NCBI GenBank assembly: GCA_036172245.1
Contig: JAYWIR010000052.1
Location: 62,001-126,000 of the forward strand
DNA from: Raillietiella orientalis
Lineage: Eukaryota
Direction: 5' to 3'
DNA length: 64,000 nucleotides
The notes beneath the pieces were generated by a model. It was not told where the DNA came from and did no database searches. It worked only from the letters and a program-made list of their open reading frames with translations. Each line of letters opens with the position of its first letter. Position 1 is the stretch's first letter. Positions 14,920 to 48,900 of this stretch are shown here, piece after piece. A program made the translations under genes and the position numbers.

Positions 14920-15057
14920 GTTTCCGTCCGTCGTACCGGGGGTTCGAATCCCGCCCAGGGGGGAGGTTCGACGCCGAGGACGGAGGATTCGTGGGTTTCG
15001 AGTCCCCCATCTCAGGATGACGCTGGTTGGCCTATTCGGGTGCGGTGCTGGTTCACA
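14920..15057 (+). mobile_element. L1/Tx1-like ORF1 C-terminal tail fragment (left part of a host copy)
   Basis: Homologous to 23650-23790 (gggttcgaatcc...ctcaggatgrcgctg); appears to resume near 16660. Confidence 0.5.
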
Positions 15058-16650
15058 CCCGGTCACGTCGGGGAGTCTGTTTATAAAAAATAAACGTCTG
15101 TAGCAGGACGTCTGATCCTGCCACGTTGCTTGTGAAAACGAGAAGGAACCTGCCGGGAACCGGCACGCAGCCCAGAAGGGTTCGCTTCGGCAGCAGAGGG
15201 GAAGAGGGGACAAGCAAAAGGAAAACAAAATGAAACAAAAAACATACAGTCAAAAAATGGGGAGGGGGTTCGGGAAGGGATCACTGTGTGCTGGAAGGTG
15301 TCCTCTGCATCCCTGTAAGCATGCCGGAAAGTTCCCGTTTTATGGTTCCCAGATGGGGCCAACTTGATGCCGTCCTCATGAAGAGGATAGCAAAATAGAT
15401 GGTGTCCTCGTCGTTCCTCCCTCCTATGGATCGCTCCACGTCTCCACGATCCCGCGTGGGCAGCAAAGTGCTGCTGGGGATGCTGCTGACTGCAGGGTGT
15501 CCCCACGCAAAGAGGAGACGCATTGCGTCTCTGGCGTTGCCACCGGGGGACCCAAGGGTCGTGGCAAAGAGTGCCCAAAGAGGCCGAAGGACAATACGGT
15601 CCACTTGGAGGTGTGGGAGGGATTCCCGCTGCCCCGCACCTTGCACAGTTCGGGTCCACACACCTCCTGTTCAATGATGCTGGCGGGCGTTGCATGGGAG
15701 GCTCCAGTGCAGCTGCATCAATGTCGACTCCTGCCACTTCAAGGCTCATGAACACCTGCACGAGGGTGCGGGTGTTCATGAGCACCGGGGACCACTGCAA
15801 GTCTTCCGCCGGAAGTCCCAGTAGCACTCTCCAGCGCAACAGTCCACGAGGTCGAGCACTCGCGGTCGCAGTCCCGGTGAGCAGGTCCGTCGTCCACTCG
15901 CCCGGTGCTCTTCTCGTTCCGGAGATTTGCACGGTAACCTTTCGTCTAGCCATAAGGCTGTTCCCTGAGGGAGGGTAGCGCGGGGCGGCAAGGGAGATTC
16001 TGATCGCCCACGCACTCTTCACGGCATCTTCCAGGATCTCCCGGAGCGTGCAGCTGTTGTTGAGTGCGTGCAGGAAGGGTCGCACCTGTTCCGCTCTTGG
16101 CTCCTGGATCCCCGCCCACGTGGGAACGGTTTCCTGCAACCAGGCACCACCGCTCGCGGGGCGGCACGAGATCCATCCGTTCTTCCTAGCCAGCGTAGCC
16201 ACCCGCCGAATGTGCAGTCCTCAGCGGATGAGGCTGCGTGGACGGCGCACGAGGAAGGACGCGAATCCCACGCTGCCGGTGGCTTGGGGGCCGAGAAGAG
16301 GTGCGGGCTGGTACCAGGTGGTGCTCCAGAGATTTGCGTCGAGGGCGAGTGTTCGAAAGCTGGAGCTGCAGCTCCTCCAGAGTCAGAAGGAGGCCTAAGC
16401 CGCCGTTCTGGCGCAGAGCACAAAAGCCCTTCAGGTGGACTTGAGGCCTTCCTTCGCCTCATAGAGGGCGATCCGGAGGAGGTCCTTCGTCCGCTTGCTG
16501 ATGCTACATGGCGGGAAGGGCAAACAAAAAGCAGGGGACGGAGAAGGGGGACCACAAACGTGTTCCACATCTGCCTCTTTGGAACGGGCCGAGCTCCTGC
16601 AGTGCTTTTTGGAGACGGCTGGGCCAGGTCAGCAGGACCAGGGCATCAAA
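15058..16650 (-). mobile_element. 5'-truncated L1/Tx1-like copy: ORF2 thumb/C-terminus, zf-RVT, 3' UTR
   Basis: WNTFVVPLLRPLLFVC, PNCARCG..ESLPHLQVD zinc finger, T-rich UTR, terminal ctccccgacgtgaccgg motif; frameshifted. Confidence 0.8.
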
Positions 16651-16659
16651 AAGCTATTC

Positions 16660-17550
16660 GGGGTTCCTTTACGGTTGTGCAAATGGACCTCCCATCGAGT
16701 ACCATGGAGCTGATTGATGCTCCCCTAAGGGAATCGCCTCTCCAGGGTGTAGGAAGCGCCCCTGGGAGAAATTTGGAAGCATCCCTTCCGGGTTCTCTTC
16801 AGAGGAGGGACAAGGAGAGGATCCTTTGCGGGTTCCCTTCGGAGAAGAAAATGGGTGTCCCCCTCCAGGGGACTCCTCTGAAGAGAATGAGGAAGAGATG
16901 GTTCCCTTTGGGGTTGCGCTCCCGAGCGTAAGATCACTGTACCCGGGGGGAGGGGGGATGAACCCGAACTATGCCAGGTGAGGGGAGCGCGAATCTCTTC
17001 CGCACCTGCTTGCGGATTGTGTCGCCCACCGGTCCATCTGTGAACGCTTAGCCTAGGGACTCCGGCGGCAACTCCAGGGAAACGCTCTGAAACTCCTCTT
17101 CGTTCGCGACGCCCTTCGGCCGGCAGCCTCGCCAGCAACCCTGTGCTGCCTACGCGGGATCGTCTCTGCCTGGAACCATGCAAGAGGAGGACCGAGCGAC
17201 AGGGGTGCCATATCCAATTTGCTTCATGTGGCTGGCAACAAGATGGCCCTACCTGAAGGATTGTATGCAGCAAAGCTTGCCGGCATCTTCGAAAGGATGC
17301 AGAGACGTGACCCCTTCCTGCAACCCCCTCCCCCAAAAGTTTATCTATGTTTATTTTATTTGCTTTTGTGTGTCCCCTCCCCTCTGCTGCTGTTACCGAT
17401 TGGCAGACCTCACCGGTCTGCGAATCGGTAACCCGGCCGGCTCCCGGTAAAACGAACGTGGCTGGACCACTGGTCGAGCCACAGTCCTTTGTAAATGTTT
17501 CTTTTTGTTTAAACCACCCACCCACCCACCCCGGGTGGCGTGGACGGGCT
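16660..17550 (+). mobile_element. L1/Tx1-like fragment: ORF1 tail (MELIDAP...) joined to zf-RVT and 3' UTR
   Basis: atggagctgattgatgc motif shared with other ORF1 tails; RESLPHLLADCV at about 16990; UTR hairpin at 17458-17482. Confidence 0.7.
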
Positions 17551-20500
17551 TAAAGAGCTTTGTGAGCTCTTCCCTAAGGAGAGAGAACGGTTTCTTCAGC
17601 GCTTGGCAAATCGAAAAAACCAAAGGAATTCAGTGGTACTTCGGTCATCGTTTGTGGAGAAGGCGTATTGAAAGATACGTTCGCAGGGAGGGATGCACGG
17701 CTTCCCGGTACATCGCTGCTGCAGCGAGATAAGCTGAACAAACAAGCTTGATCCCACTCGATCCCTTCGGTGAAGCAGTGGTCCGCGTTGTGGAAATTCG
17801 TTCGTTTCCCCCCTCAATTAAGGGGGAGCGTTTGCCTCATGCCGCAAACGGCGGTCTGGATTCTGGCTTTCGGGCAAGACGAATTCTCTGCCGTTGGGGA
17901 CGAGAAATTCGGAACGGCGAGATGCGGCGTCTTCCTTTTGTTTTCTGCTGGAGCCGAGATGGTGCAGCACGATGGAAGAGCAGAATCACTTTTGCCGCCA
18001 CCGTCCCGATAATAAATTGGAGCGGAATGCGATCGTTTGCAGGAGCGCTGGGCTGCAAGTGCGCTGCGAGACGAAGTCTTTTATTTGGGAATTTACTGCC
18101 TTAATGAATAGAAGTTTGAAAAGACGGTAGACAAGGAGCAAGTGATCTGTGCATCATAAACGGGGGCCGTAATTCTCCATCAAGCGCGCTATAAACAGAT
18201 ATCCGCGAATTTGTTTTCATTATTCCGGACAATAAATAATAGTAGTAGAATTCCCGGATGTACTGGAAGTGGGGGGGGGGAGGACAATACGATGGCAAAA
18301 AGGCGTTCCCTTGAAGAGTGCCCTTTTTTTTTTTTTTTTTTTTTTCTGTACGATTTTGCGAATGAAGGTATGTCACAAATTACCACTACAAGTGGGCTAA
18401 ATGATCCGGAATACATACATACATATGCATATATGTACATAAATTTCAGTGCTGGGAAATTGCTTTCACGTGGGGGCATGGTTACGGCATCCTTCCGTGC
18501 GACGCGAATTTGTCGGATGACATTCTTCGCTGCGCGCCTGGGAAACGACCGACGCGTCTTGGAGCTCGGCGCTCCTCCTGAAGAGCGTCGCGGCAGCCAT
18601 CGGAGGATTCGTGATTCCCTTCCGCACCCAGGCCACGAGGAGGACGCGTCCATGGCGACGGTCTCCCGAGCTCCCGAATCCTCGAAACGCGGCGGAAATC
18701 GAGGGAAGGGAAGGGATGCGGGGAGGGAAACCCCGTCGGCGCGCAAGCAGATGGAAATCTCCGTTCAGAGAAGTCGAGATGCAGCTATCGACGTTCTTTT
18801 CGCTACGAATCGCCTCTTTTAGCCGCAGTGCGAGATCGCCTTCCCAGTCGCAAAGAGCGCAGCAGACGGACACTTCGTCTTTCCCCCCACCCGCGGCTTC
18901 CGAGGCGCATCTCTCCTCTCGACCCTCGTTGCCTTTATGAGGACCTCGCGCACACGTACACGCGCGCTCCAGCACACGGATGCTGGGGGGATGGTGGGAG
19001 CTGGGCGAGCGCGTGGATCCCAGACCAACGGACCCTTTCGATCGGAAGTGGACATCCATCACCATTTCCCCGAGTACTGCTGAAATAAAACGCTCGCTTG
19101 CGTCCGTAAATAATTCGCAAGAGTTTCCTCGACAAATTGACCTGTTTGGAGTCGAGGCGCGGACACGTTTGGCGGGAGGGGGAGGAGGCCCGTCGAAGGA
19201 AAACGATGCCCGCCTCTATTTTCTTGCACTTTTAGCAGTCGAATTTATGGGAGATTCTCCCGTCAGCGAGAGCTTTGTGCTCGCTAAATAGGGGAACGTC
19301 TTTGGACAAATGCGGTATGGCAATAAAAGCCAGGGAGGAGTTGATTTAGAGATCAAGTGCAAGTGCGTTTTGGGAAAGGGGACGAGCGCGCCCGGGGTAG
19401 ATGCATTCCCTTGCGGTGCCTTCCGGGTCCCGAGGAGAAAAGGGCGCGCGCGCTACCCCACTGGCGGCAGGTTCAAGATCGATCTCCGAGGCAGTTTGGA
19501 TCTCTTCCTGACGGTCCAGGGAAACGGAAACGCGGGCCTGCCGAAGAGGGCCTCCTGTCCTTCTCACCCTGTACGAAAGGGGTGAGGAGGAGGCGCTCCT
19601 CTCTCGCACTGCTACTTTTCGCGTTCAGATTCCCTGCCGAAGAGGCTGCGGTGAGTGACGTGGCGGTGGTGGAATGAGCACCGCACACTCCCGTGCGGTG
19701 GGCAAACGGAAGCCGCCAAAAAGGAAGGAGGTCTTTCTCCGTGCTGCTCACCACGGAGGGGTTCGGCTACCTTCTGCGGGCGGAAGGTGTGCAAAAGGCG
19801 AAGCGATCTGCGTTGTCCCCCAAGTCGAACCGATGAGCCTGGGGGCTGCGTCCGAGTCCGAAGTACCACCGAGAGGTGGATAAACAAGCGATAAGATACG
19901 TACCGAAAAGGAACGAGTCTTTCGAGTGTCCCGGGACAAAAATATACAGAAACGTTTCGAGGGCGCGCACGTCGCCCCGCGCTACGTTCGCGCGGACGTC
20001 TTTTTATCTATTAATCCCCCGTTGACTTTGTCGCTTATCTATTTTCCCGGCTTTTGGTTCGTCGGTCAAGTGGAAAACAATTGTTCCTGGACGATAAGCT
20101 CCTTATTTGCATCCTCGCCCAGCGTGTTTTGACTTCCTGTTTCGATTGTTTTCGTGTATTTTTATTGATGCAAAATTGGTAAACAAATACGTTGGAGAAA
20201 GCGAAAACTGTTTGCCGAGGAATCCCTCCCCGGGAGCGTTCCAATAGCCTCTTGTACACAGCCAGGTTGGCCCTCCCCGTGCCCCCCTCCCCCCTCTGTC
20301 CGCTCCGCAGAGAGAGAGAGAGAGAGGGAGGGAGAGAGAGAAGGATGGACGTGGTGGGCACCTCGACGCTGTGCTGCCGCCTCCCTTCGTCCGTTTCCTT
20401 CTTCGGCGTGCGAGCGAGCGGTGCACGCTGCTGCGATGATGGCCCCTTTGATCACCGCGTGACCTTCTTCCCGAACTTCCCCCGCGCAACTGGACTCGGG

Positions 20501-22079
20501 GTCACCCGCTGAGAGGCGCGCGCCTGCATGAGCGAGGCTCTTGTGGTCCACAGCGCATCTGGGATTTCGGATCGCTGGCTCCGGAGCGGCTTGGCATCGG
20601 CGACGTTCCCTTTCGCTTCCCGGCCGTCCCGTTCCCGAACGCCTCGCCGGACGCGGCTGGGATGGGCTCCTGCACTCGCGAACCTTCCTCCCTCCGCAAC
20701 GCGAGTCCCATAACTTTGGTTTCCTTCATCTCAGCATTTTCTTTTCTTCTCCTCTGCGTTTTTTTTTTTTTTTGTTTGTTTGTTTGTTTCGGACGGGTCG
20801 CCGCCCATGAGGAACCTCCGCAGGGAGAGTTGGAAGGGAGGAGGAGAAGAGAGCTTGCGGGAGGGAATCCCTTCTTCCCTTCTCGTCACGTTTTTTGTTC
20901 CCCCATTCCTGTTGTTGTTCCCTTCCCCCATCTCGAGGACAACAGACAGCTGTTGTTTATTGTCCTCATCGATGATATCCATCAAGTCAATTAGATCCAA
21001 TTTAATTATACCAATTATATCGGCACCATTTGCTTATTTTTGCTCCGGGCAAACCCGCTCCCTGCGAGGAGATCTGAAATTTTCCTCTTCCCGCTGTGGC
21101 ACGGGGACGATCCGGCTCTTCCCCCCCCCCCCCCCCGTCCCCTTCTCCTTTTCCGAGAACCTCACGCTCTCCTGCCGAAGTGCTCTTTGTTTTGCTTTCG
21201 CGCGCGACCTCTCCTCCTCGATCTTCGGAGGAACGCAGCGGCCGAAGATTCTTCCGGGAAACCCCCCCTTGTGGATGTGCCTCTTCCTCCCCTTCCCCGC
21301 TGCCCGTCCGGGACTTCTCCTCCTCCGATGGCTGGTCCCGCGGATGGTTGCGAGGAAGATCGTCCCGTTCCAAACCCTGGCGATGTTTGCCCAGTGTTGA
21401 CGAACCCGCTAAGCCCATGATGACGGACGCTCCTTCCCCGGATTTCGTTTCGTCCGAGATCCTCCTCCTTATTGACTCAAGAAGCGAAAGAGGGGCGTAG
21501 GAAGGGCAGCGCTTACAATCGCCCTTCTCCCCACCCCCACCCCCCCATCGGGATCAGTGGACACAGCTGGATGGAATTCCTCTGGGTCGTCCCTCGTTCC
21601 CCGTAGGTGATGGGATGATCGATCGACGTCCCACGTGGAGGGATAGCTGGAGACACTGCGCGTCTCGCCCTTCGAGGTGCGGCAGCAGCCGAACGAGGTC
21701 TGCGCAGATGCGTCAAGATCCGCGAAGACTCCTTTTGGTCTCCTCTTCTTCATCCCCTCCTCCACCCCCCCCCCCCCCTCTTCCCTTACTCCTTCTCCTC
21801 GTCTTCCTCCAGTCCAGCCAGCCCGCATCTTCGCGGGAACTTCGTCGCCCGCGATGAGGGCGCGATCCTCCCCCACTTCGGCACGGTGCCTTTCACGACC
21901 GGAGGCCCGGTGCCGACCTCTCGGAACGGCTGCTTGGCCCCAATCGTCGTCATCACCTCTGGAGAGACGGGGGGACCGCGCCTCCGATGGCGTCGTGATC
22001 GGAGGCGCAGCTGAAGATTGCGTGCGCAACCTCCAGCCCAGGAAGACAGCCAGGTCGGGGGAGAAAGGCATCTTGCGAT

Positions 22080-23010
22080 TGCGCCAGGGGGTTTCTTTAA
22101 AGAAAATAAATAAGTCGGTGGCAGAACGCTTGGTCCTGCCAAGTTACAGATGTAACCATGGGAACCTGTAGAGGACCGCCACGCAGGCCGGCGAGGTTCG
22201 CCTCGGCAGCAGAGGGGAAAGGGGAAGGTGACAAAAAAGAATAAATAAAACAAAAAAATATATATGCAAAAAAAAATTAGGAGGGTCCGAGAAGGGGTCA
22301 CCGAGTGCTGGAGGGCGTCCTCTGCATCCTTTCCAGGATGCCTGTGTCATCATTTCCAGATGTAGCCATCTTGACGCTGTCCTCAGGAAAAGGACCGCGA
22401 AATGGATAGCGTCCCTTTCGTCCTGGCCTACCCTTGCTGCACGCAGTCACGGTCCCGCCGTGTAGGCAGCAAAGAGCTGCTCGGGGTGCGGCCTGCGCGG
22501 GGGCGTCGCGCGGGAAGAGGCGCTCCAGAACGTCTCTGCGATTGTCCTCGGAGATCTGCAGAACGCGGCAAAGACGTCTTCCCGCAGGGGGCGGAGGGCG
22601 ACACAATCCACAAGCAGGTGCGGGAGGGACTCTCTTTCGCGGACCTGCCCAGTCTGGCCTTGTCCAGCTTCTAGCTGCTGTAGGAGCAGGTCCAGCACCT
22701 TCTTCGAATGCTGACCTCAGGGGAGGTAGCGGCTGGCAGCCTCCGCTGGGGTAAAGGGGCGTGAGTGGGCACGGAGAACTCCCTCTCCAGCACATCTCGC
22801 CGGACTGTGATGTAGTTGAAGAGGACGGGAGCGCGGACCTGGTGAAACTGAGAAACCAGTGGACGCTCTGGGGTGCGCTGAGGGAACCCCTGAGCAACCA
22901 GACCCTTCTCCAGTAACCACCAGAGAGCTCTGGAAGCCGCCTCCTTCCTCAGTGGTTCGCCCGTCTCGGTGCGGAACTTTCGTTGCCTCGGACAAACGCT
23001 GCCGAGTACC
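22080..23010 (-). mobile_element. L1/Tx1-like ORF2 C-terminus, zf-RVT and 3' UTR
   Basis: RERESLPHLLVDCVALRPL, conserved UTR fold, T-rich tract. Confidence 0.8.
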
Positions 23011-23500: not shown

Positions 23501-23627
23501 ACATGCGCTTAGGAAGCGGGCTGGGTAACGACGGATATCACGCATTTGGAGAGTCGAAGATGTAACGACCCACATCTGAAAGAGTTGCTGAGGTCGCCCG
23601 CGTCGGCGGCCGCCTTGAGGCTGCGGC

Positions 23628-24700
23628 CTCCTCCCGGCTCGGCTCCAAGCGTCGCGGGTTTGAATCCCTCACGGGGGGGAAGGATCGACGCCCCGCGAAC
23701 GGAGGGTGCGTCGTCGCCGTCGGTTTGTAGCTCCCCTCAGGATGGCGCTGATTGGCTCACATTCGGGCGCGGCGGTTCCGGCGGAAGCTGGAAACTCCCG
23801 GATGCCCCCGTCGAGAGACCAATATCCTGGAACAACCCCGGAGGATCGGAAGTCGACACTCCGGGGTTCTTCCAAGATGGCAAGGAGCCCTTCCGGGTTT
23901 CCCCCCCTCCGAGGGTAAAGAAGAAGCCGTTATCATGGAGCTGGTCGATGCTTCCCTGAGGGGGGGGTAGCCTCTGCAGAGTCGAGAAGCGCGATGCTGC
24001 CTTCGGGGAGCGCCCTCCAGAGGAGTTGGGAAGCATCCCTCTGGGATCCCCATCAGAGAAGGGGTAAACAAGGAGTGGAACCTTCCAGGGGGTCCCTCCG
24101 GAGAAGAAAACGAGGACGACGAAGAGGTTCCCTTCGGAGGCAACCAGGGCGAGGAAGCGTTCCCTCCGCGGTTCCCTAACGAGCGCGAGAGGAGCGGAGT
24201 CCCACCTTCCTCGCGAACCTTCCTGGATTCATGGGGTGACCCCTCCGGGGAGCGACCCCCTAACCTGAAGAGTCACTCGTACCCTCAGGTGACGCCGAAT
24301 GGCGTCAAAGAGCTTGGACCTCCCCTCTAAGGAGGCAGACGGCTCTTCGGCACTTGGCGACCCCCTTTCGTAAAAAAAAAGAGTCCTCCAAAATAGGCAG
24401 AGCTGTTCTTCGTTTCCTGGGGCGCTGGTCCGCACGGAGCCTGGAAACTTCCCTCCTGGAGCATGCGCGCACGGAGGCGAACTGCACTGTGGAAGCGGCC
24501 AATGCCCGACCCGACCCTGACTGCCCAAGAGCCGCACCCGCGTAGCTTTCAGGTCGGCCGGCTGTGTTGCTCCTGGAAAAGCCATGAAATCCTGGGAGGA
24601 GGAGGAGGAACGCGCCGCGTGTCCCGAGACCTCACTGCGCCTGGTGATCCAGCAGACTGAGAGGTCAGGCTTGGCGCTCGGCCCCCGGGGGTCCTCGTCT
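23628..24700 (+). mobile_element. L1/Tx1-like ORF1 acidic tail (GEENEDDEEVPFGGNQGEE) running into a degenerate ORF2 piece (GPHGAWKL)
   Basis: Homologous to 36849-37512, 46320-46900 and 47770-48090. Confidence 0.6.
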
Positions 24701-25610
24701 TCGGGCGTGTCCGTGCGCTCTTTCGTCACAACCCCCTCCCCGAATCCTCAAACCCATACCGAGAAGCGAATCTCCTCCAGGAACGAACAGGAACGATGGA
24801 CGTCCCCGTGCCTCGGAGGAGGTAGGGAAGGGTCGAGTCAGCGACCTCGCGCGGAAAGTGTGTCCCTGTAGCCATCGTTGGCTGGACCCTGTGGTTCTTC
24901 GCCCACCCGGCCACCCTGCCCTGCGGGAGCAGGGCGCTCTTTGGGAAGCGAGGCGTGGTCTGAAAATCCTCATCCAGAGTGACGGGATGGCGACGCGCGC
25001 CTGAGGTGGACACATGCGGCTCGCCGCTCCTCTTCCAGGAGGCGTCGTGGAAGGGACCGCGGCGAAACCCACGGAAACCCGGCTCTTCTTCGCCGCGTCG
25101 TTTCCACGCGCGAGCGGTCGCGTCGCCGTGGAAACGTGATATCCTCCTTGCGACTGCGGTCGCGGCGCGGCAACCCTCGCCGGACGGGGGCACTGAGCGA
25201 TTCCCCCCGTGCTCCGGATCCGCGAAACCTCCCACCCAGTCCTTTCACAGGAATCCCTGGGTCACCCGCTTCTCGGGAGCAGCGGAGCTCCCCTCCACGT
25301 GAGCAGCGCGTCCACCGCCCAGGAAAAAAAAAACGAGTTCCCCTCGCCCCATACACCCACGCGAATTCCCGAGGTGCTTCGCGCTTCATAACCTCGCGGA
25401 CTGGGCTCGTCTCAGACGCTCGGTCCTAGGGTTCTGAGATCAGCTTCCCCTGCACCATCTGCCCGCGGGATTCGGGGAGGGGGTTTGTGACGGAAGGGTT
25501 GTACTTGCAGGCCCGCCGTTGCACCAGGAGCCCCAACGCTCGTCGGCTGGAGGGACGAGCGCCAAGCCTGGCAGTTCGGGTCGGTCAGCTCGCTGGACGA
25601 CCAGCATTAC

Positions 25611-26534: not shown

Positions 26535-27168
26535 CCGGTTACGCTGAGACGTTTATTTTAAAGCAAAGAGCTACAAGGAAGAGGGGAAAAGTACCCCATC
26601 TCCTCAAAAACCAGAAAGACCGGGAAAAAAGTTCTTTCGTGTTAACCACCGGCACGCGGGTGGGCTTCCAAGAAAATTTTACCTGGGTTCTCCTGGTCAT
26701 TTATTTAAAAATAAAATAAACATTTACAGTTTTTTGTGGATGGACCACCGGTCCAACCACGTCCTTTCTGTAGATATCTTGCCGTGTTACCGGTTCGCAG
26801 ATAGCTGAGGTCCATCACGGCAGCAGAGGGGAGGCGGGCAAACAAAAAGAAGAAAAGGAAACAAAAATAAATAAATAAACTCGAAGGAAGAAGGTGTGCA
26901 GGAAGGGGTCACGTCCTGCTGGGGGCGGTCCTCTGCATCCTTTAGAGGATTCCGGCAAGCTCTTGCTGCATACTGTCCCTCCAGATGGGGTCATCTTGTT
27001 GCCATCCTCATGAAGCAAAGTGGATGTGGCACCCCTGTCTCTCGGTCCTCCTTTTGCATGGCTCCAGGAAGAAACGATCTCTCGTAGTCAGCAGGGGACT
27101 GCCGTCGAGGCTGCCTGCCGAAGTGCGTCGCTCAGGAGGAGGGGTCTTAAAGCGTCCCTGGAGTTGCC
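26535..27168 (-). mobile_element. L1/Tx1-like 3' end(s): ORF2 terminus, UTR and terminal motifs
   Basis: 26804-27168 is a near-identical inverted copy of 43602-43965; terminal motif aataaacgtctcagcgtaaccgg at about 26535-26557. Confidence 0.75.
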
Positions 27169-27174
27169 TCGGGA

Positions 27175-37950: not shown

Positions 37951-38499
37951 CCCGGCTGCCTCTGTCGACGTCTTCCGGTCCTCCATGGTTCATCGTGTCC
38001 CGCTCACGGTTGCCGGGGCGACGTCTGCGGACGAAGACGCTTCGCAAAGATGCGCTCAGCCACTTCCTTCTGCCGCTCTGCTTTAGGAGCTGCGGCGCCG
38101 CCGCCGCCACCTCCGCCGCGCGTCTCCGAGACAGGTCATCACCCCATGAACCGACCCGGGTTTCCCACGGCACGCGTCAGCGGCTTCCGGATACCACGGA
38201 TCGGAAGGAAGAAGAGGCGCTCGCATGCAGTCATTGGAAAGGATCGTCGTCGCCTTGACACGACAGTGCTGATGAGGGTCATCGGTGTCCGTCGTTCCTT
38301 CGTTTCAAATCCGACGCTGGACGCCCCCCATCTCCTTCTTGGCTTCCTTTTGCAGGTACATCCACCTTGCAGCCCGTCCTCGCATGGGCGGCTGCCATCT
38401 CGGAGACCACTCTTCGCTGTCAACGGTTGCATCAGAGCATATGCGTGCCGTGACGAACGGCACTGCGATGGTTGTGCCATCCCACCCGTCAAGAGTCCT

Positions 38500-39290
38500 C
38501 CCGGTGCGAAGAACCGCCGCAGCAGGTCGCGGGCGGTGTCTTCCTGGCGCAGGAGTGCTGCTGCCCAGCCTCCTCCACCACGGTTCCCGGAGGGCACCGC
38601 TGTCCCAAAGCAGGTGCGGCGACGACCCTACCGACCTGCACCAGGAACGGCAGTTCGGGGATGCACCCCCTGCGGAAGCGAGGTTGCAGGCGCTCGTTGC
38701 ACTGGAATCTCCCGTGGAAGAAGAGCAGCAGGGCCTGTTTCCAGGGCAGAGGGAACGCAGAAGTGCCCAGGCACTGGGAGGGGGAGGAAGGGCCGCAAGT
38801 TCTTCAGGGGGCAGCACTGAGAAGTGGAATCCTCGTCTCTAGGGCATGCGGAGTGGCAGCATCCGCCAGCTCGCGCGCGTCCTCCGACCTCCAAGGAGTT
38901 TCGTCCTTCCCGCGATGGCTCAGGACGAAAACTTCCACCTCGCCGGTCGGCGACTGCCGTCGCTTGCCCTGAAGGTTGCCCTGCAAAGAGGGGTGTGGCT
39001 GCCAGGGTCGACCAGTTCGCCGCATCCTCCATCGCCACTTCCAGTGGTCGTGGCAACAGATTTCGCAGGCGGTGAAGATGTTCAGGGTGCATTCCCTGGA
39101 ATGCAGCCCAGGACCCAACAGCCTCCTGCCGCTAGGCGTTAAAGTTCGTCAGGTAACGAGATGGTTGGTTACCACCACTAGGGAGGATTGCTTCAGGGGG
39201 GAAGCCAAATCCCCGCATTCCGCAGCGGGTGCCCTGCAGCAATGAAAACAGTCCTTCGCTTCCAGAACATCTCCTCAGGATGAGGCAGTC
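38500..39290 (-). mobile_element. Strongly diverged L1/Tx1-like ORF2 C-terminal fragment
   Basis: PNCRSWCRSVGSSPHLLWDSGALREPW zinc-finger remnant. Confidence 0.5.
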
Positions 39291-39539
39291 GGGGAGGGTC
39301 ACGCTGGGTCACTCGGGGGCGTTTCCTTTATAAAAAATAAAGCAATCGGGAACATGCTGACTCCCAACCAAAGGCAAAAGAATTTCAAAGGGAGGGTTTA
39401 CCAACGTGCGGGGATGAAGAAAAGTCCGGAGCGGGAGAGGGGATCGGGGGGCAACAAAAAATAAAAATAAAATAAATCCACTGGGATAGGAGAGGGATTT
39501 TTAGGTCCGCTCCGTGTGCACCCTGAACGGTCGGGGAGG

Positions 39540-40300
39540 TTTGTCACCCGGATATGCAGAAGCATTTATTATAAAAATTATAATAAAAGTCGATATTTTT
39601 TACAATACTGTGGTAGAACACGTGGTTGTTGTACCCGCCTTTTCCCGCTTTCGATGCGGCAGGACGCTTCCTACCTTGCGGAAAGGCCCTTGCGTCCTTA
39701 ATGGAGGACAGCACTGGGACAAAAGGGGCGAACGACACTCGCAGCAGTTTGGGTGGGCTGCACGCGATCTTCCACGGGCGAACACTTGTTGGGACCGGCG
39801 CGCAGACCGGCGAGGTCCATTGCCGCAGCGAAAGGGGAGGGAAAACTCCAAAACAAACAAAAAAAAAGATGGGGAAAATGTTTCTTCGGGGGAGGAGAGG
39901 AGGGAAGGGATCACGGTACGCAGGGAGACGTCAATTGCATCCTGTCCAGGATGCTGACAAGTTCTGTGCTTGTTTGTCCTAGGTGGAGCCATCGGGAAGC
40001 GGTCTTAAAGGAGATCCCCCCCCAGTGGATGACGTCTCTATCGTTCCTCCCTCCTTTGGCGTCGCTCCACGTCTCCACGATCCCGCGTGGGCTGCAAAGT
40101 GCTGCTGGGGATGCGGCTGGCTGCAGGGTGTCCCCACGAAAAGAGGGTCCGCATTGCATCTCTGGCGTTGCCACCGGGGGACCCGAGGGTCGTGGCAAAG
40201 CGTCCCCAAAGGGGCAGAAGGACAACACAGTCCAGTAGGAGGTGCGGCAAGGATTCCTGCTCCCTCGAACCTTGCACAGTTCGGGTCCACACAACCCGTG
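39540..40300 (-). mobile_element. L1/Tx1-like zf-RVT, ORF2 end and 3' UTR (3' part of a second host copy)
   Basis: ESLPHLLLDCV, ILDRMQLT, UTR fold. Confidence 0.8.
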
Positions 40301-41986
40301 ACCAGGTTGATGCAACGTGGGCAGGACGACCTGACTGGATCCGCCTGGGGATCCCCACGGAGAGGTACTTGAAGTACCTTGGCGTTCCGTTGAGGGACTT
40401 CTGCCAGTCAGAAGGCTGGTCAGGTCGTCTCCAGAAAGTGGAGTCGGCGATCGACCCGTTCCTGGAAGGCAAGTTTCACTTGCGGAAACGGGCCGCGGTG
40501 TGGAACGCGTTCGCGGCCCCCCTCCTTCACCCCCTGCTTTTTGTTTGCCCCGTACCACGCGAGATGAAGAAGAGAACCAAGGACCTCCTGCGCATCGCCC
40601 TGTGGGGCAGCAGGAGGCTTCGTGTGCCTCTGCAGGACTCGTGCGCTCCGCGTCGGGATGGCAGTCTCGGCCTCCTGACGCTCGAGCGGATGGAAATTCA
40701 GCTGCGATGGCGAACGTTGGCCATCGCGGCGAAGTACTGGAGCACCCATTGGTGCGTTCCGACCCGCCTCCTCGCCAGCCGTGTATCCAGAGCGGGAGGG
40801 CTCTCCTCTTTTCTTCTGTGCCCCGGCCAGAGAATAAGAAGATGCGGCCTTCTCCTCAAACGCATGGCCACCGTGGCCAAGGAGAACGGCTGGATGGCCT
40901 GCAGCCCCGCCAACTCCAGCGCATAGCTGGAAGAAACAGTTGGCGAAGTTGAACCAGTCAAGTGGTGAATCCTGGAACCGCCTGCGACCCGGCATCTACA
41001 CCCGCTGCACGCTGCGGAACGTGCTCGAGTGTCTTGCCAGAAGCACGTGGGAGGAGACGACCCCACTAACCACGGCGCTGCCCTTCTTGAGGAGGGCGCT
41101 CGGCAGCAGCCGAACGCCGAGGTGGCAAGTCTCCTGCCGGAGAGCGGGCAAGGAGAAGCTGTTGGACCATGAGGGAACTGGCTGACGACGCGACCCCGAG
41201 TGTCCTTCCGCGAGGAAGTCAGAGATGGGGCGAGCTTCTGGGCATTCCGCTGGATGACCTAAAGTGACCCCCGGTATTTGGAGACGCATCCACCTTCCCC
41301 CTCAAGTGGCAGGAATCGGCGCTGCTGCTGTTGCACCGGGGTTTTCCCTGCAACGCGCGCCGCCACCACTGGACGTTGGAGATGGTGGGACAGAAGTGTG
41401 CAGCAGTGTGCGGGGAAAAGGAATCCCTCTCCCACCTGTTATTGGACTGCGCTGCCCTCCGGCCTTTGCGGGAACGTTTTGCTACGACCCTCCGGATGTC
41501 GGTCGGCAGCCCCCCAGAGACGTTGTACGCCTCCTCTTCGTGCGAGACACCCTGCAACCAGCCTCAGCCCTGGCAGCGCTCTGCTGCCTCCGAGGGGATT
41601 GTGGCTGCGTGGAGCGCAGCCAACAGAGGAAGCAGCGAGAGGGACCCCATCGTACACCCGGGTCGCTACCCGCGGATCGCGATTGGATGGTCCTATCCGG
41701 GAGCTATGCGGAGGGACCTCGAGGACATCCTGGAAAGGATGGTCTCTTCCTCCAGCGGACAGTGATGCCTTCCCGGCCCACCCAACTGTTTCTTTTTTCT
41801 TTTTTTTTTGTTTTCCTTTTTATTTTTATTTTTGTTTTCTCCCCCATCCTCTCCGCTGCCGACGAGTGTGGAGTCGGTCTGCGTACCGGCTTCCCGGCAG
41901 GCCCCATGAACTATTGGCCGCAGCGGGGCCTCGTACCGCAAATGTACAGACTTTAGAAATAAACGCCCCGGCGTGACCGGATGGGA
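40301..41986 (+). mobile_element. Copy X', inverted duplicate of 31995-33694
   Basis: ORF translations are identical to the X ORFs except isolated residues (GGLG vs GSLG). Confidence 0.9.
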
Positions 41987-41988
41987 AC

Positions 41989-42690
41989 TCCCTCGCTTTG
42001 CAGTGGTGGAGGTGCGCTTTGCATGGGGATTCCCCCACGCAACACCGGCAGCGCCAACTCCCGATACTTGAGAGGGAGGGCTCCACTGTTCCAGCACGCT
42101 GGGGGACATCCCACCTCCTCCGGAGGGATGGCGAGGCAGCTCACCCCTTAGGCGCGACACTCGGTGTCGCAGCGTCCGTGAGCTGCTCAGTTGTCCACGC
42201 TCTCTGCCTCGCTCGCTCAGTGGATCTTCTCCCGTGTGGAAACTGACTTCTGTAGCCAGGCAGTGCAGTTCGTGGAAAAGCAGGAAATCCAGGTACACCA
42301 AGGCAAGCAACCATCCGACGACCTCCCTGTGTTTCACAGGGGGGTCCCGAATCAGGTTCACAGGGCTTTCTTCAGGAGGTCCTCGGTTCGCTTCCTGATG
42401 TTGGGTGGGACGGGGTAAACAAAAAACAGGGGGCGGAGGAGGGGAGCCGCGAACGCGTTCCACACCGCGGTTCGTTCCTGCAAGTAGGACCTGCTGTTAC
42501 GGAACGGACCTAGCGCTATGTCCACTTTTCAGAGACGGCTGGACCAGGGTGCTTCTGCAACGCAGAATTCCCCCAGCGGAACGCCAAGGTACTTGATTTA
42601 CCCGCCCTTGGGGATCCGCAAGTGGATCCAGTCCAACCTACGCTGCACCAACTAGCACCAGTGACGACTTCGCCTTGTTCAGCTCAAGTG
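41989..42690 (-). mobile_element. L1/Tx1-like RT thumb/C-terminal fragment (5' part of the second host copy)
   Basis: KYLGVP and WNAFAAPLLRPLFFV motifs on the minus strand. Confidence 0.7.
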
Positions 42691-43059
42691 GTCGGGGAGG
42701 TCGGTTTATGCGGACGTGCGCATTCCGAACTGCACGGCTGTCCGTGGCCGCGTCTTCCTTATCGCCACCTGCCTACTGCCTCTTCTTGCGCTGTTTCCAA
42801 CGGCGTCCCAAAGCGCCGGGGGCAAGACTCCCGAACGTGCCGTTTCCGTTCAGCAACGCCCTTCTCGAAAGCGGCTTCCCCTCCCGTCACATGACCACCC
42901 CGTATCTTTGCACGAGCCCCACGTTCGAGCGCGGCAGAACGCGAGCCACGCCGACTCGGCTGGTTTTGTTTTGCGGGCGTTTCGATGCGCCGCCGGGTGA
43001 TCCGGCGATCGCTTCGCTTGGGCGTGCTCCAGCTCGCTCTTGTCTTTGGAGCTCATGTA

Positions 43060-44030
43060 GGTCAACCCGTGAGCAGAATTCGCATCTTCCCTTTGTGGCC
43101 CTGGCAACCAGAAGACGAGACTCGTCCGGAGCACGCGGCACGCAAGGCCGCGTACCCTGTTTTCCCGAAATACCCTCCCTGAGGGAGCACATAGGCAGCA
43201 GCATTCCGGCAAGGTGGGAGGTTACTATGGAGATCTCTGGCAGGAAAAAAGGACTGGGCGAGTGGATGATGGGCAAGCTTACAGACACTGTGACCGCAGG
43301 TGTCCCACCTCGTGGACATTTTCTCTGGAGCGAGCTTGTGGATATTCCGAAGGAAGACCTGCAGTGGTCCCCAGCGTGTTGGGACAGTGGCACTCTCCCA
43401 TGAAAGTGGCGGGAGTCAGTGCTGATGCTGCTGCACTGGGGACTCCTGTGCTACGCCAGCCGACATCATTGAAGCCGGGTGTGTGTGGACCCCAACTGTG
43501 GCAGGTGCGGGGAACGGGAATCCCTCCCGCACCTGCTGGTGGACTTTGTCATTCCCTGGCCCCTCTGGGAACTCTTCGCCGCGACCCTAGGAACCCCCGG
43601 CGGCAACTCCAGGGACGATTTAAGGCCCCTCCTCCTAAGCGACGCACTTCGTCAGGCAGCCTCGACGGCAGTCCCCTGCTGACTACGAGAGATCGTTTCT
43701 TCCTGGAGCCATGCAAAAGGAGGACCGAGAGACAGGGGTGCCAAATCCACTTTGCTTCATGAGGATGGCAACAAGATGACCCCATCTGGAGGGACAGTAT
43801 GCAGCAAGAGCTTGCCGGAATCCTCTAAAGGATGCAGAGGACCGCCCCCAGCAGGACGTGACCCCTTCCTGCACACCTTCTTCCTTCGAGTTTCTTTATT
43901 TATTTTTGTTTCCTTTTCTTCTTTTTGTTTGCCCCCTCCCCTCTGCTGCCGTGATGGATCTCAGCGGTCTGAGAACCGGCAATCCGGCAGACTCCCGTTG
44001 GAATGGACGTGGTATTTCACCCGGTTCTGC
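43060..44030 (+). mobile_element. L1/Tx1-like ORF2 C-terminus, zf-RVT and 3' UTR
   Basis: DPNCGRCGERESLPHLLVDF; UTR fold. Confidence 0.85.
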
Positions 44031-44049
44031 CAGGACATTTCTCATTATT

Positions 44050-44720
44050 AAGGTCACAATTAAAGCGTACAGGTTTACAACAACGTGGTAGAACACTTGG
44101 TTCTACCACGTGCGTGAAACTTGCCAAGACCGGTATGTGGATCGGCGAGGTCCGTTTCCACGGCGACAGGAAGGGAAAAACCGAAGCAAGAAGACAAACA
44201 ATCAAAAAACCAAAAAAGGGGGAGAAAATGCTTCCTGAGGAGGGGGGTGGGTTTATCGTCCGGATGTGCAGGGTGATAAACCCATAACTCATAACAATAA
44301 TAAAAGTACATTTCAATTAGTCACGTAGCGAAGCACTTGGGTCACCACGTCCGTCCAACTTGCCCGTCACCGGAATGGTGGATGGTGAGGTCCGCTCCAG
44401 CAGCGAAGGGGGAGGGAAAACCACATACACACACACCAAAAAAAAGGGGGGGAAAAAAAGGGGGTGGGAGGAAACGTTTCTTGAGGAGGGGAGGGCGGGG
44501 AAGGGATCCCATTTCGCCGGGGGACATCCTCTGCATCCTGCCCAGGATGCTGACAAGTGGTGTTCCTGTGTTGCCCAGGTGGGACCATCTCGTGGCGGTC
44601 ATCAGGAAGAATTGTTGCCCAGTGGATGGCGTCATTGAATGCACGTGGTTGGGCCACCGGTCCAACCAGAATGTTTGCAAGCGTTTATTTTTCACATTAA
44701 ATAAACGCCCCTCTGGCGCG
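44050..44720. mobile_element. Cluster of short L1/Tx1-like 3' UTR fragments (two minus, one plus)
   Basis: Hairpin at 44083-44111; 44293-44575 is a direct copy of 25611-25895; aataaacgcccc at about 44700. Confidence 0.7.
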
Positions 44721-45357
44721 CCCCGCGCGGCAACTGTTTTCCCGAACGGGGGATTCCTCTGAAATGCTCCCCCCCCCATCCCCATCCCCATCCAGGTGGC
44801 TCGGTCGGCAGCCTCCGCTCGTTCCTGTTGGCGCGCGCGTCTCCGCTGCCACCATCTCCGGTCGACCGAGTGGGGGTTCCATGCGTCTGCGGACCTCCGC
44901 GACGCGGCTCTCAAGCTGCGGAAGGAGGAAACGCGCAGGGCAACCGCCCTCCCGCCACTTCCGGCCAGCCCGGTCGCCGAGAACCACCGAACCGTTGCCT
45001 GCCGACCGTCGAACGTTCAGGATCGCCGCCACCGGATCTCGCGGTACTTCTACGCGCTTTCTCCCCCAGAGGCGTAAGAGGTCATCACCTCGGCGTATGC
45101 GCTCCGTGTCGAAGAAGGACAGCTCCCGAAGGAACAGCGAAGCCCTGAGAGAAAGCGGCGGCAGGTTGTCCCAGGAGCGCAAGATCCGTGAGGACCACCG
45201 CCTTCCACTTCGCTGCCTTCCTCCCACCTCTTCTATGTCTTTTTTTTTTCTTTTCCTTTTTTAAGGGGTTCGGCAAGTGCTGAAGAAACGCCCACCTCCT
45301 TAGGGGAGGGGTCACTGTCCACGACACCTGAGGATACGTGTGACCCTTCAGGTTAGG

Positions 45358-46308
45358 TTTAACAACCGGTAACACCGGGGCATTTATTATAAAAATGAAC
45401 ATACAAGTGTAGGGCGATCAGCCCTACATCGTCCGAAAACGTTCGGAGCTGGCAGAGCGACCGGCACGCAGGCCGGAGAGGTTCACCTCGGCAGCGGAGG
45501 GGCAAGGGACAAACAAAAAGAAAAAGAAAAGAAAACACTATTTACAAAAAGAATAGGAGGATTGGGGAAGGGATCACTGTCCGCTGGGGGCCGTCCTCTG
45601 CTTCTTTTCCAGGATGCCGTCAAGTTCCATCCGAGTATGTCTCAGGTGGGACCATCTTGCTGCCGTCCTCAGGAAGCGCAGGGTGAAGCAGATGGCGTCC
45701 CTGTCGCGCCGCCCTCCTCTCGCGTAACTCCAGGCCGCCACGGTCTTACGTAGGCAGCAGCAAAGAGCTGCTGGGGATGCGGCTGGCGGTAGGGCATCAT
45801 CCCGCGTGAAGAAGAGTTTTACAACGTCCCCGGGGTTGTCCGTCGGTGCACCAAGGGCCGTTGCGAAACGCAACCATAGAAGCCGGAGGGCAACACAGTC
45901 TACAAGCAAGTGCGGGAGCTGGGATTCCTGTTCCCCGCACCTGCAACAGTTGGGGTCCACAGCCCCCCGGCCCCCCGTGAGACCGGTGGGCATTGCACAG
46001 GAAGCCCAGTGCAACAAGAGAAGTGCCGACTCCTGTCAGTTCAGGGAGAGGGTCCGTTTGTTCTTCAGCGCTGGGGGCCAATAGAGGTCTTCATGTGGGA
46101 TTCCCAGAAGCTCACCCCAGAGCAATAGTCCTTTCGGTAGAGCACTTGGGGTCACAACGCCCGTGATCTGACCCGTGGTCCAACAACCTAGTTCCTTCGT
46201 CTTTGGCCAGCTGGTTACTGCCCAGGTGCTCCCTGAAGGGCAACGCGGCGGCTAGGGGGGTTCTTTGCCCGCATACACACGTGGTGGGCTGCATAATGAC
46301 GTCCTGTT
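45358..46308 (-). mobile_element. 5'-truncated L1/Tx1-like insertion with 13-bp TSD
   Basis: DPNCCRCGEQESQLPHLLVDCVALR; TSD ccttcaggttagg (45345-45357) / ccttcatgttagg (46309-46321). Confidence 0.88.
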
Positions 46309-47310
46309 CCTTCATGTTAGGGGGTCATCCCCGGAGGGACCACCCCATGAATCCGTGAAAGCTTCCGAGAAAGGACGGAGTCCGTTCCTCTCTTACTCCT
46401 GGTAGAGGAACTCTGGAGGGAACACATCTTCTCCCTGGTTGTCGCCGAAGGGAATCTCTTCGTCGTCGTCGTTTTCTTCTCCGGAGGAAACCCCCGGAAA
46501 GGGTCCGCCCCTCTGGAGAGAGCCCCAGAGGGACGCTTCCTGATATTGTCTGAAGGGTCGCTCCCGTAGGGAGCGGCGCGCATCTTGACACTCTGGAGAG
46601 GGGACGGCTCCCTCTTCACAACCAGAGGGGAATCCCCGAAGGATTCCTTGATGTCCTGGAAAGTCAACTTGCAATCCGAGCCAGCCAACCGGGGCATCCG
46701 GGTTTTCCACCAGTGCGGTCGCACCCGAACGGGCCAACCAGCGCCACCCTGCGGCGGAGGTGGGAGGGAACTGGAAAACGAAAGACGCACCCCCCATTTC
46801 TCGGAGCGCAGACCCTTCCCCCGATGGAATTCGAACCCGTGATGACGCTTTGGTGCCACGCCGGCGGAGGCCGTCGCTATGGCAAAACTCGAGAACTCGG
46901 GAACTTGAAGCAGGTCATCCTCGGTCATGATGTGCATCGAAAGCCCGGAGCTGCTCGAGGCGCACAAAGTGGTCCTGAGAGGTTTCGGAAGCCTCCGCTG
47001 TGGTGCCGCACCCTGAAACAGGCCGACGCACCAACATGCGAAAACACAAAAACACCTCAGTGATTCTCAGGTGAGATTAGAAGAACGGGCGGTGGCCTTT
47101 CGGTGTCCAGGTAGATGGTGGAATACATCAACGCGAAGGTTCAGTTGAGAGCGCGCACCAGAGGGGAGGGGGGGGGGATGGCGACCTCGAATTTCAGTCG
47201 GGTGCGGGTCCGAGCGTCACTCACGTTCAGCGCGATTTGCCAAAACACATCGGCGAGCCGTCGATATGAATTTGTTGGGACCACGTGGACGAGACAAGTC
47301 GTGTCGAAGA
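46309..47310 (-). mobile_element. L1/Tx1-like ORF1 (RRM-like region, knuckle remnant, acidic tail); host continues below 45357
   Basis: DTTCLVHVVP...IYLDTERPPPVLLI...ACFR followed by GEENDDDEEIPFGDNQGEDV. Confidence 0.65.
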
Positions 47311-47769
47311 AGTGAAGAAAAAAAAATGCTTGCAGCCAATGGCAGCTTGATTTTTTTATTTTTATCTTATGTTCTCCATCCCCCCCCCCCCCCCCAATGC
47401 TCTTCATCGTGGTCGTGACCTCCGAAAACAAAAGTTCAATGCAAGAAGAGGCAGAAAGGATACCTCCTTCCTCCCGCTCGCCTCCTCGGTAAAGGGGGGC
47501 GCGTGCTCTCTGAGCCTCCAGGAAGGCGAGCGTGGCCCTGGCAAGCCCGCGCGAGGGTGCGGAATCCCCAAAGGTCACGCGCGCTCGCTGGCGGCACAAT
47601 GACCAATCATACTGCAGCTGCTGCGCATTTCGCGTTCCCGCCTCCCGGCCCAGCCGTCCCGACGAGACGTCCCAGCGCGGCGAAGGTCCGCCAGACTCCC
47701 CTCCTCTCCCTCTTTCCCTTGGAGCAAAGAGCGGACTCTTCGTCCCGCGTCAGCGCTTCAAATTATGGA

Positions 47770-48900
47770 GGGAATAGCCCGTGAATCCAGGAAGGCTCCC
47801 GAGGAAGGAGGGAGTCCGTTCTTTTCACGCTCGGTAGGGAGCCCCAGAGGGAACACATCCTCGCCCTGGTTGCCTCCGAAGGGAATCTCTTCGTCGTCGT
47901 CGTTTTCTTCTCCGGAGGGAACCTCCGGAAAGGGTCCGATCCCTGTTCTCCCCTCCTCTGAAGGGGATCCCAGAGTGACGCTTCCCGATTCCTCTGGAGA
48001 GCACTCCTCGAAGGCAGCAGCGCGCTTCTCGACACTCTGCAGAGGAGACCCCCCCGATGGGGGCATCGATCAGCTCCGTGGTACTCGGTGGAGGGTCCAT
48101 CATCACCACCGGAGAGGTGGACCCGGAAGGGAATCGGCGCTCCCTGCTTCTTGGAAGAACCCCAGAAGGTCCACCTCCGGAGTCCTTCCAGGAACCGGAT
48201 GTCCCCGTTGATCGCAGAAGGTCAGAACCCTTCTTTCGCCTGCGAAAGAAGCATTCCGACGTCTTGACGCACGTTCCGACGTCGCCTCGACCCGAGTTCC
48301 GACGTCTTGACCTGCGACGTCTGCCTTCTAGCCAGAGCCTGCGTCACTTTGCACCAACAGTCGGAACTCGGGAAGGTGAAACCGAGAGTCATCAGCAAGA
48401 AGCAGTGAATGCGTTGCTCTTGGCCTTAATACAGCGGGCAAGATTCACTCGTGCTGACTGCACGGGAAGTCGAAGCTTGCTGCCAGTCCGGTGAAACTTG
48501 AAGGGCACCTCGCCCGGATGCATTTCCTGAGCCCTACTCACCGCCGCCACCAGCGCGTCCGGTTTGGTTTCGCTCCTTCGGTCGGGCTCGCGTCACGGAA
48601 GAGCTCTCCGCCCGCCCAACCTTCCGGCTCGCGCACCGCAGGCGCCACCCGTGCAAGTAGTGGCTCGTGCGACCGCTCAGGGGCCAAAAGCAAACCGACG
48701 GATCCTGGCGAAGCGCTGGGCGCCACCATCCGTGCTGCGGGGCAGCTTCGAGCCGTGCCGGAGACCAAGTCGTGCTCTTGCGCGTGACGCGCTGGCCACT
48801 CGGCGGAGGAAACGGGCCGGGCGTCTTTTGCTTTCAGTCGACGTCAGGAGGTGCGTAATTTATAGTCAAGCTTCCTCGCGTGCTCTTTAGGAATAATCGC
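47770..48900 (-). mobile_element. Further L1/Tx1-like ORF1 fragment with acidic tail
   Basis: MELIDAP-type motif and GEENDDDEEIPFGGNQGEDV at 47770-48090; upstream limit uncertain. Confidence 0.6.

What the first reader, a model, noticed from the sequence alone, without database searches (positions are those of the whole stretch)
14920..48900. 34-kb nest of one L1/Tx1-like retroelement group: candidate self-insertion hotspot or small-RNA silencing locus
Seen: roughly 20 fragments of related elements in both orientations, nested in one another, with no copy recognised elsewhere in the window, plus several near-identical inverted pairs. Known: Tx1-clade elements often show target preference, and piRNA clusters and hairpin-RNA loci consist of TE fragments. 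Inference: either the family preferentially inserts into its own copies, or this locus is a family-specific trap whose read-through transcript folds into long dsRNA.
Basis: partly seen in the sequence, partly recalled or inferred. Interest (0 to 1): 0.75.

Follow-up and report, generated by a model that had tools for sequence, protein, structure and literature searches.

The report
LINE jumping genes targeting their relatives
This 34-kb stretch of an arthropod genome is one of many old pile-ups formed because several sister lineages of a LINE jumping gene each land at one fixed spot inside their relatives or inside a short SINE repeat, and its near-identical mirror-image patches look like later copy-to-copy repair rather than a dedicated silencing hairpin.

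Summary
The cluster is real. About 21 decayed L1/Tx1-like LINE pieces, both strands, cover 48% of 14,920-48,900, against 0% of the flanks and 0.6% of 20 spread genome samples. It is several small nests plus four tRNA-headed SINEs and a U1 retrocopy, not one nest.

It is not a unique locus: the family has thousands of copies. Of 60 3' junctions taken in genome order, 35 lie in the family itself and 4 in the SINE; 30 fall on seven recurrent sites. Sites track subfamily clades. Of 20 chosen loci, 13 show the target on both sides and 8 have target-site duplications. Three window insertions use the same sites.

Best reading (0.8): Tx1-type sequence-directed insertion, each subfamily aimed at a site in sister elements (mostly antisense) or in the SINE, so nests feed themselves. 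The inverted pairs (best 1,962 bp, 99.2%) look like local gene-conversion tracts. The small-RNA trap idea is untested (no RNA run listed) and not needed. The scan reported this behaviour earlier on other DNA of this genome.

The parts
14891..15052 (+). SINE1 head (tRNA-like, B-box-like motif recalled), cut at profile position ~178 by an E-type LINE
15053..16630 (-). E-type LINE, 5'-truncated (ORF2 aa ~766 to 3' hairpin), antisense in SINE1 at the recurrent E site; about 65 nt of SINE missing at its 5' side, no TSD seen
   Evidence: E clade 100/99
16638..16933 (+). SINE1 body (profile 241-576)
16933..17520 (+). F-type LINE 3' piece (aa ~1067 to end), sense inside SINE1; end approximate
17529..17599 (+). 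SINE1 tail (profile 667-736)
17600..22078 (.). single-copy spacer, no family match, no Pfam hit in ORFs of 120 aa or more
22079..22950 (-). E-like LINE 3' piece; 5' end approximate
23596..24350 (+). SINE2, full length; 96.6% to SINE3 over 648 bp
25264..26500 (+). old ORF2 piece (aa ~278-365 and ~377-456), interrupted by a G-type copy
25605..26250 (-). G-type LINE 3' piece, antisense at ORF2 aa ~366-376; hairpin lost; 92% to 44,293-44,580
26680..27174 (-). F-type LINE 3' piece; 97% tract shared with 43,602-43,979
27166..27527 (+). ORF2 piece aa ~713-829
27560..29663 (+). internally deleted LINE: ORF1 aa 1-210 joined to ORF2 aa ~867 to 3' hairpin; 5' start approximate
27707..27845 (-). U1 snRNA retrocopy, 3'-truncated just after the Sm site, antisense in ORF1, 10-11 bp TSD that overlaps 9 nt of U1's own sequence
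31284..34313 (+). E-type LINE, host of C copy 1 (aa ~864-1090 left, aa ~1094 to 3' hairpin right)
31994..33700 (-). C-type LINE copy 1, 5'-truncated at aa ~721, antisense at the recurrent aa-1094 site; TSD degenerate at best
34884..36394 (+). two tandem old LINE 3' pieces; hairpin at 36,394
35424..35791 (.). MITE-like insert with short imperfect terminal inverted repeats and TA on both sides (Tc1/pogo-like by recall); 78% copies in 2 of 20 spread samples
36827..37514 (-). SINE3
38308..39296 (-). old LINE piece aa ~879-1211
39300..43070 (-). old LINE 3' piece (39,300-39,540 and ~42,702-43,070), host of the G copy; the upstream part is inferred
39545..42690 (-). G-type LINE, 5'-truncated at aa ~717, sense in its host, 12-bp TSD; itself host of C copy 2
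40300..41987 (+). C-type LINE copy 2, antisense at the aa-1094 site of the G copy; 99.2% to copy 1 including the truncation point and ~260 bp of flank
43089..44081 (+). F-type LINE 3' piece aa ~961 to end
44081..44710 (.). short UTR scraps, including a G-type piece 44,293-44,633 (-) and an F-like end ~44,634-44,710 (+)
45359..46308 (-). H-type LINE, 5'-truncated, sense in the tail of SINE4, 13-bp TSD with one mismatch
45280..46878 (-). SINE4 (46,302-46,878 and tail 45,280-45,358), split by the H copy
47745..48186 (-). SINE5, partial (profile 211-664); fourth SINE copy besides the split SINE1

Best explanation
The region is an old, self-feeding cluster of one L1/Tx1-like LINE group. SHOWN: intact relatives elsewhere have a CCHC-knuckle ORF1 and an APE-endonuclease/RT/zf ORF2, and end in AATAAA plus a GC hairpin with no poly(A). 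Subfamilies insert at their own recurrent sites: C at ORF2 codon ~1094, B at ~509, A at ~318 (all antisense), E at nt ~178 of a tRNA-headed SINE (antisense). Insertions there are independent, with 10-24 bp TSDs and different 5' truncations. The window holds three such events (15,052; 31,994; 41,987). INFERRED: target-primed reverse transcription is steered mainly by subfamily-specific endonucleases, possibly helped by pairing of the RNA 3' end with the nicked DNA. Each new copy adds landing sites; the C site lies in the 3' part that survives 5' truncation. So SINEs and a few LINEs in a gene-free gap seed a growing pile. INFERRED: the near-identical inverted patches are later local gene-conversion tracts.
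For: Clustering 48% vs 0.6%. 35 of 60 genome-order junctions in the family, 4 of 60 in the SINE, 30 of 60 at seven recurrent sites; P about 4e-20 even if the family were 10% of the genome. Each site label is confined to one clade: aa1094 12 of 21 rows in C (100/93), aa509 8 of 10 in B (100/100), SINE site 13 of 19 in E (100/99); 39 label changes vs 82 shuffled, 0 of 200 as low. Target on both sides in 13 of 20 chosen loci, TSD in 8 of 20; further TSDs. Donor copies are more alike than their targets at aa509 (0.94 vs 0.73) and aa1094 (0.76 vs 0.54). Endonuclease domains of A, B and C are 70-75% identical. Pair tracts are 97-100% in the core and fall to 57-60% in still-homologous flanks. For the three pairs searched the partner is the best genome-wide hit.
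Against: 21 of 60 junctions are unassigned and several family junctions are off-site. F-type copies, about a fifth of the window pieces, show no shared target in 8 other loci. The D (ORF1 aa378) and aa79 classes include shared composites and showed no TSD in 7 of 7 loci; D flanks are as alike as the donors (0.92/0.92). The identity medians come from regex classes that held some misassigned rows. The E count is inflated because I searched with the SINE. Only 7 of about 21 window pieces show both host sides, and the two C copies have no clean TSD. The 60 junctions carry exact end motifs, so they are young copies. No biochemical test. The spread sample is only 200 kb.
Confidence: 0.8

Rival explanations
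1. A dedicated small-RNA locus (piRNA-cluster-like trap or hairpin-RNA gene) for this family: a read-through transcript folds on the 2-kb inverted pair and selection keeps the arms identical.
For: A 1,962-bp 99.2% inverted pair about 6 kb apart and two smaller pairs exist; both strands are represented; no Pfam-recognised gene lies inside.
Against: Many contigs carry similar nests. The pairs cross each other. Similar inverted pairs occur in 2 of 32 other nest loci. A trap would be expected to collect diverse transposons (recall), whereas I recognised one LINE group, one SINE and one MITE.
Confidence: 0.07
2. Neutral pile-up: random insertions survive in a gene-free, tolerant gap; no targeting.
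For: No recognised gene between the SLC12A8 exon at 57-542 and the window end. F-type copies look untargeted. It probably explains where the seeds lie.
Against: It cannot give codon-exact recurrent junctions tied to clades, and 30 kb of equally gene-free flank in the window holds no copy.
Confidence: 0.05
3. Recurrent junctions are inherited: a few ancestral chimeras were spread by 3' transduction or segmental duplication.
For: True for part of the data: identical composites in L157, L158 and L012, and in L148 and L150; duplicated loci such as L112/L113. The window's C pair may itself be one insertion copied with its flank.
Against: Copy-specific TSDs, different 5' truncations, and targets from different subfamilies for B, C and E. 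The two window C copies abut different hosts at their 3' ends.
Confidence: 0.08

Closest known systems
Tx1-clade LINEs that target other transposons: Tx1 in Tx1D (Xenopus); Tx1-Mar in Mariner-N4_AMi, Tx1-9_AMi in Harbinger, Tx1-8_Crp and Tx1-4_AMi in LTR elements (Kojima 2015, PMC4494074; passages and section 15 read)
   Same: APE-type LINE, fixed site inside an interspersed repeat, TSDs, tandem re-use of one site, snRNA passengers.
   Different: The targets here are coding sites in sister LINE subfamilies and a tRNA-headed SINE, a different site per subfamily. Neither is listed in the passages I read; the paper's supplementary figures S3-S5 were not seen. The RT region is only 24-30% identical to the 18 public proteins found.
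Zepp (Coccomyxa C-169, PMC3446292, passages) and ZeppL (Chlamydomonas, bioRxiv 10.1101/2025.03.28.645958, passages)
   Same: L1-type LINEs in nested clusters of tens of kb (Zepp clusters 1.5-42.3 kb).
   Different: Zepp forms one cluster per chromosome and ZeppL clusters are centromeric. Here there are many interstitial sites per contig, several subfamilies with distinct sites, and an arthropod host.
piRNA clusters and hairpin-RNA loci (recalled)
   Same: TE fragments on both strands; long inverted repeats.
   Different: Content is nearly one LINE group with sequence-determined junctions; no RNA evidence available.
Tailless, internally primed snRNA retropseudogenes (recalled from mammals)
   Same: The U1 copy is truncated at a microhomology with its target and has a TSD.
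   Different: It sits inside the LINE's own ORF1.

Membership tests
L1 group non-LTR retrotransposon | ORF2 with APE endonuclease, RT and C-terminal zinc motif; separate ORF1 | tested here: met
   PF03372, PF00078, weak PF13966, ORF1 zf-CCHC in intact relatives; best PDB sequence match human LINE-1 ORF2p E 4e-45 vs R2 3e-11
L1 group non-LTR retrotransposon | TPRT hallmarks: 5' truncation and TSD | tested here: met
   window TSDs at 39,529/42,690 and 45,345/46,309
Tx1 clade | RT phylogeny groups with named Tx1 elements | not tested
   No labelled Tx1 references were in hand. Top hits are fish and amphibian proteins, one being BAC82609.1 'pol-like protein' of Danio; its link to the Kojima-Fujiwara Tx1 series is recalled and was not confirmed
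Target-specific Tx1-type family (Kojima 2015 rule: over 20% of flanks share the target) | Recurrent target in over 20% of flanks | tested here: met
   Among the 60 genome-order junctions: B 3 of 5, C 4 of 8, E 3 of 5, aa79 type 4 of 4, A/D group 7 of 30 at the aa318 site (4 direct, 3 tandem) and 7 of 30 at ORF1 aa378; small n
Target-specific Tx1-type family (Kojima 2015 rule: over 20% of flanks share the target) | Same rule for the F subfamily | tested here: not met
   no shared flank in 8 loci
Target-specific Tx1-type family (Kojima 2015 rule: over 20% of flanks share the target) | Endonuclease cleaves the site in vitro | not testable with these tools
   Tx1L endonuclease does so (PMC1950540 passages); untested here
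Zepp-type cluster | One cluster per chromosome | tested here: not met
   end-motif matches at many distant places per contig, e.g. 15 on C5 and 12 on C1
Zepp-type cluster | Centromeric (CENH3-bound) | not testable with these tools
   no chromatin data
piRNA cluster | Uniquely mapping 24-31 nt RNAs, 1U bias, ping-pong | not testable with these tools
   no run was listed
hairpin-RNA locus | Long inverted repeat within one transcript | tested here: inconclusive
   repeat present, transcript unknown

The most novel reading that the evidence does not exclude
The subfamilies form a guild of mutual parasites. Each has evolved to cut a conserved coding site of its competitors, disabling them and, through antisense read-through, making RNA against them. 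New targets can be inherited quickly because read-through 3' flank RNA pairs with the nicked site (A and D endonucleases are about 90% identical yet use different sites). The nests, helped by conversion-maintained inverted arms, would then double as self-built small-RNA sources.
Probability: 0.2. Interest if true: 0.82.

Novelty: new variant of a known kind. Interest (0 to 1): 0.57.

Why it matters
Known repeat-targeting LINEs aim at DNA transposons, LTR elements, RNA genes or microsatellites. Here a set of close sister subfamilies (endonucleases 70-90% identical) divide up distinct sites inside one another and inside a SINE. That gives a natural series with intact copies for asking how LINE target specificity changes, and whether endonuclease or RNA-DNA pairing decides it. 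It also shows how TE-only islands can form without a host trap. This window itself is an old, partly scrambled example; younger nests elsewhere in the genome are cleaner.

Tried and rejected
Expression and small RNA: no run was listed, so nothing was learned either way. A first host-gene search found nothing; a second gave arthropod SLC12A8 at 50-60% with no close relative. No tRNA gene by ARAGORN: the tRNA-like motif is a SINE head. I first guessed that the G copy at 39,545 sat at ORF2 aa ~375 antisense; the sequence shows it sense in an old LINE end. I first read the U1 3' flank as pure TSD; true U1 genes carry the same 9 nt. Regex site classes misfiled at least L084-2082, L037, L064, L085, W-39545, L061, L071 and L017+6547; I used alignment-based labels for counts, which dropped 31 of 167 ends as duplicates or too short. 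One palindrome over the region: rejected, the pair centres differ and cross. Assembly artefact for the pairs: unlikely, tracts end inside diverged homologous DNA, but reads were not available. A labelled L1-versus-Tx1 tree could not be built. Literature searches listed no paper on sister LINE subfamilies targeting one another in an arthropod; most listings were seen as titles and abstract starts only, and Repbase Reports and subscription papers are not covered.
Full report
Setting. The window is G000:C52:62001-126000 of a 210.5-Mb assembly in 491 contigs. The only Pfam-recognised host exon in 179 ORFs scanned is an amino-acid permease piece at 57-542 (-), whose best hits are arthropod SLC12A8 proteins at 50-60%. 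ORFs under 120 aa were not scanned.

The observation. Self-comparison shows a web of 65-97% matches on both strands between 15.0 and 48.2 kb. With libraries from other loci, LINE sequence covers 48% and SINE 8.5% of 14,920-48,900, and neither appears in the rest of the window or in 40 kb of flank. In 20 stretches of 10 kb taken at round-number positions the figures are 0.6% and 2.2%. I count about 21 LINE pieces, roughly half per strand. The region is several small nests, not one: 17,600-22,078 is single-copy, and 7 pieces show host sequence on both sides.

The element. Intact relatives have a ~540-aa ORF1 with CCHC knuckles and a ~1,220-aa ORF2 with APE endonuclease, RT and a weak zf-RVT match. 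Human L1 ORF2p is the best solved match; public proteins are 24-30% identical over the RT region. The 3' end is AATAAA, a GC hairpin and about four bases, without poly(A). A 140-aa piece has 6,598 first-look candidates, the best 150 spread over many contigs. Two exact end motifs match 330 and 153 times, against 0 for the controls. The locus is therefore one of many.

Where copies land. I classified the first 30 matches of each end motif in genome order (60 of 483). Thirty-five are followed by the family itself, 4 by the SINE, 21 by nothing I could assign. Thirty fall on seven recurrent sites: ORF2 antisense at codon ~79 (4), ~318 (4, plus 3 tandem re-uses), ~509 (3) and ~1094 (4); ORF1 sense at ~378 (7); ORF2 sense at ~138 (2); SINE antisense at ~178 (3). 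On a tree of 136 ends each site is confined to one clade, with 39 label changes against 82 in shuffles (bootstrap not fully settled; near-copies help such clustering). Ten of 29 other SINE loci are cut at the same base by the E subfamily, two of them duplicates; the query ended at that site, which may bias the share.

Independence. I fetched both ends for 20 junctions chosen from these classes. B (3 of 3) and C (4 of 4) have TSDs of about 10-24 bp, the same host on both sides and different truncation points. E (3 of 3) has SINE on both sides with three different truncations. A has host on both sides in 3 of 3 and a TSD in 1. The aa79 (0 of 3) and D (0 of 4) classes gave no TSD and include shared composites, so they are partly inherited junctions. 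The F subfamily shows no common target in 8 loci. Targeting is thus shown for B, C, E and probably A, not for all.

The window in this light. At 15,052 an E copy sits at the SINE site. At 31,994 and 41,987 C copies sit at codon ~1094 of two different hosts, an E and a G copy. A G copy (12-bp TSD) and an H copy (13-bp TSD, in a SINE tail) are further clean insertions. A U1 retrocopy (Rfam 110.9 bits; 99% to true U1 genes) lies antisense in ORF1; it stops where U1 shares 9 nt with the target, which suggests that this machinery can prime by RNA-DNA pairing (inference).

Mechanism. Endonucleases of A, B and C are 70-75% identical, A and D about 90%, with differences in short segments including the stretch before the IDH motif; that this is the hairpin-loop region is my reading. 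For human L1 and Tx1L, that loop affects specificity and RNA-target pairing is mentioned as a possible added factor (PMC1950540, passages). I infer endonuclease-led site choice with possible help from pairing. Every insertion adds targets, and the C site lies in the part that 5' truncation keeps, so clusters grow.

The inverted pairs. The large pair is 99.2% over 1,962 bp, includes the shared truncation point and ~260 bp of flank, and drops to 57-60% in homologous DNA on both sides; the SINE, F, G and E pairs show similar short tracts. For the C, SINE and F pairs the partner is the best genome-wide hit. Comparable inverted pairs occur in 2 of 32 other nest loci and 0 of 24 non-nest loci. Local gene conversion is the simplest reading; local re-insertion of the C copy with its flank is an alternative for the large pair. 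The pair could form dsRNA if transcribed through, but no RNA run was listed.

Comparison and novelty. It works like Tx1-type elements that target other transposons (PMC4494074) and builds clusters like Zepp (PMC3446292), but fails Zepp's one-per-chromosome feature, and strict Tx1 membership was not tested by tree. My searches listed no account of sister subfamilies with separate sites in one another; supplements and Repbase were not seen. I formed this reading before consulting the scan's notes, which report the same nesting, SINE site and conversion pattern elsewhere in this genome; they are not independent evidence. Verdict: new variant of a known kind, interest 0.57.

Noticed in passing
L172-L174, L178-L183, L193 (contigs C51, C71, C188, C220, C3): U1 gene arrays with ~5.5-kb period: a full U1, then ORF1- and ORF2-like sequence, a hairpin end, then U1 from position ~22; looks like a U1-targeting LINE that keeps a whole U1 in front. 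Already in the scan's notes.
   Followed up: partly
L177, L184/L185, L175, L176: Further U1 retrocopies cut at the Sm site; L177 and L184/185 have TSDs.
   Followed up: partly
contig C52 (L166-L168, L170 and one more hit): 5 of the 38 best non-window relatives of the F piece lie on C52, 0.5% of the genome (0.18 expected): same-contig homogenisation or local spread.
   Followed up: no
window 30252-30482 and 54314-54551: A different 230-bp repeat, inverted, 75% identical, with one copy outside the cluster.
   Followed up: no
window 22973-23006 / 23201-23234: Short inverted repeat (34 bp, 94%) in unassigned DNA.
   Followed up: no
window 57-542 (-): SLC12A8-like exon; the gene's 5' end lies to the right, so the cluster may be upstream or intronic.
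   Followed up: partly
L025 3747-6689 (+), just right of the window: Long S/Q-rich ORFs, probably exons of a large regulatory protein.
   Followed up: no
L112/L113, L093/L098, L068/L069, L063/L064: Near-identical local duplicates including flanks, 45-130 kb apart, some inverted: segmental duplication or conversion seems common in this genome.
   Followed up: no
L110, about 200 bp after the SINE: A stretch resembling U2 snRNA (by recall).
   Followed up: no
L043, L017: C-type ends also abut the SINE near profile position ~577-595, a possible second C site.
   Followed up: no
whole window and spread samples: GC varies from 32% to 64% between 10-kb samples; in the window CpG is depleted only in the AT-rich ends.
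   Followed up: no
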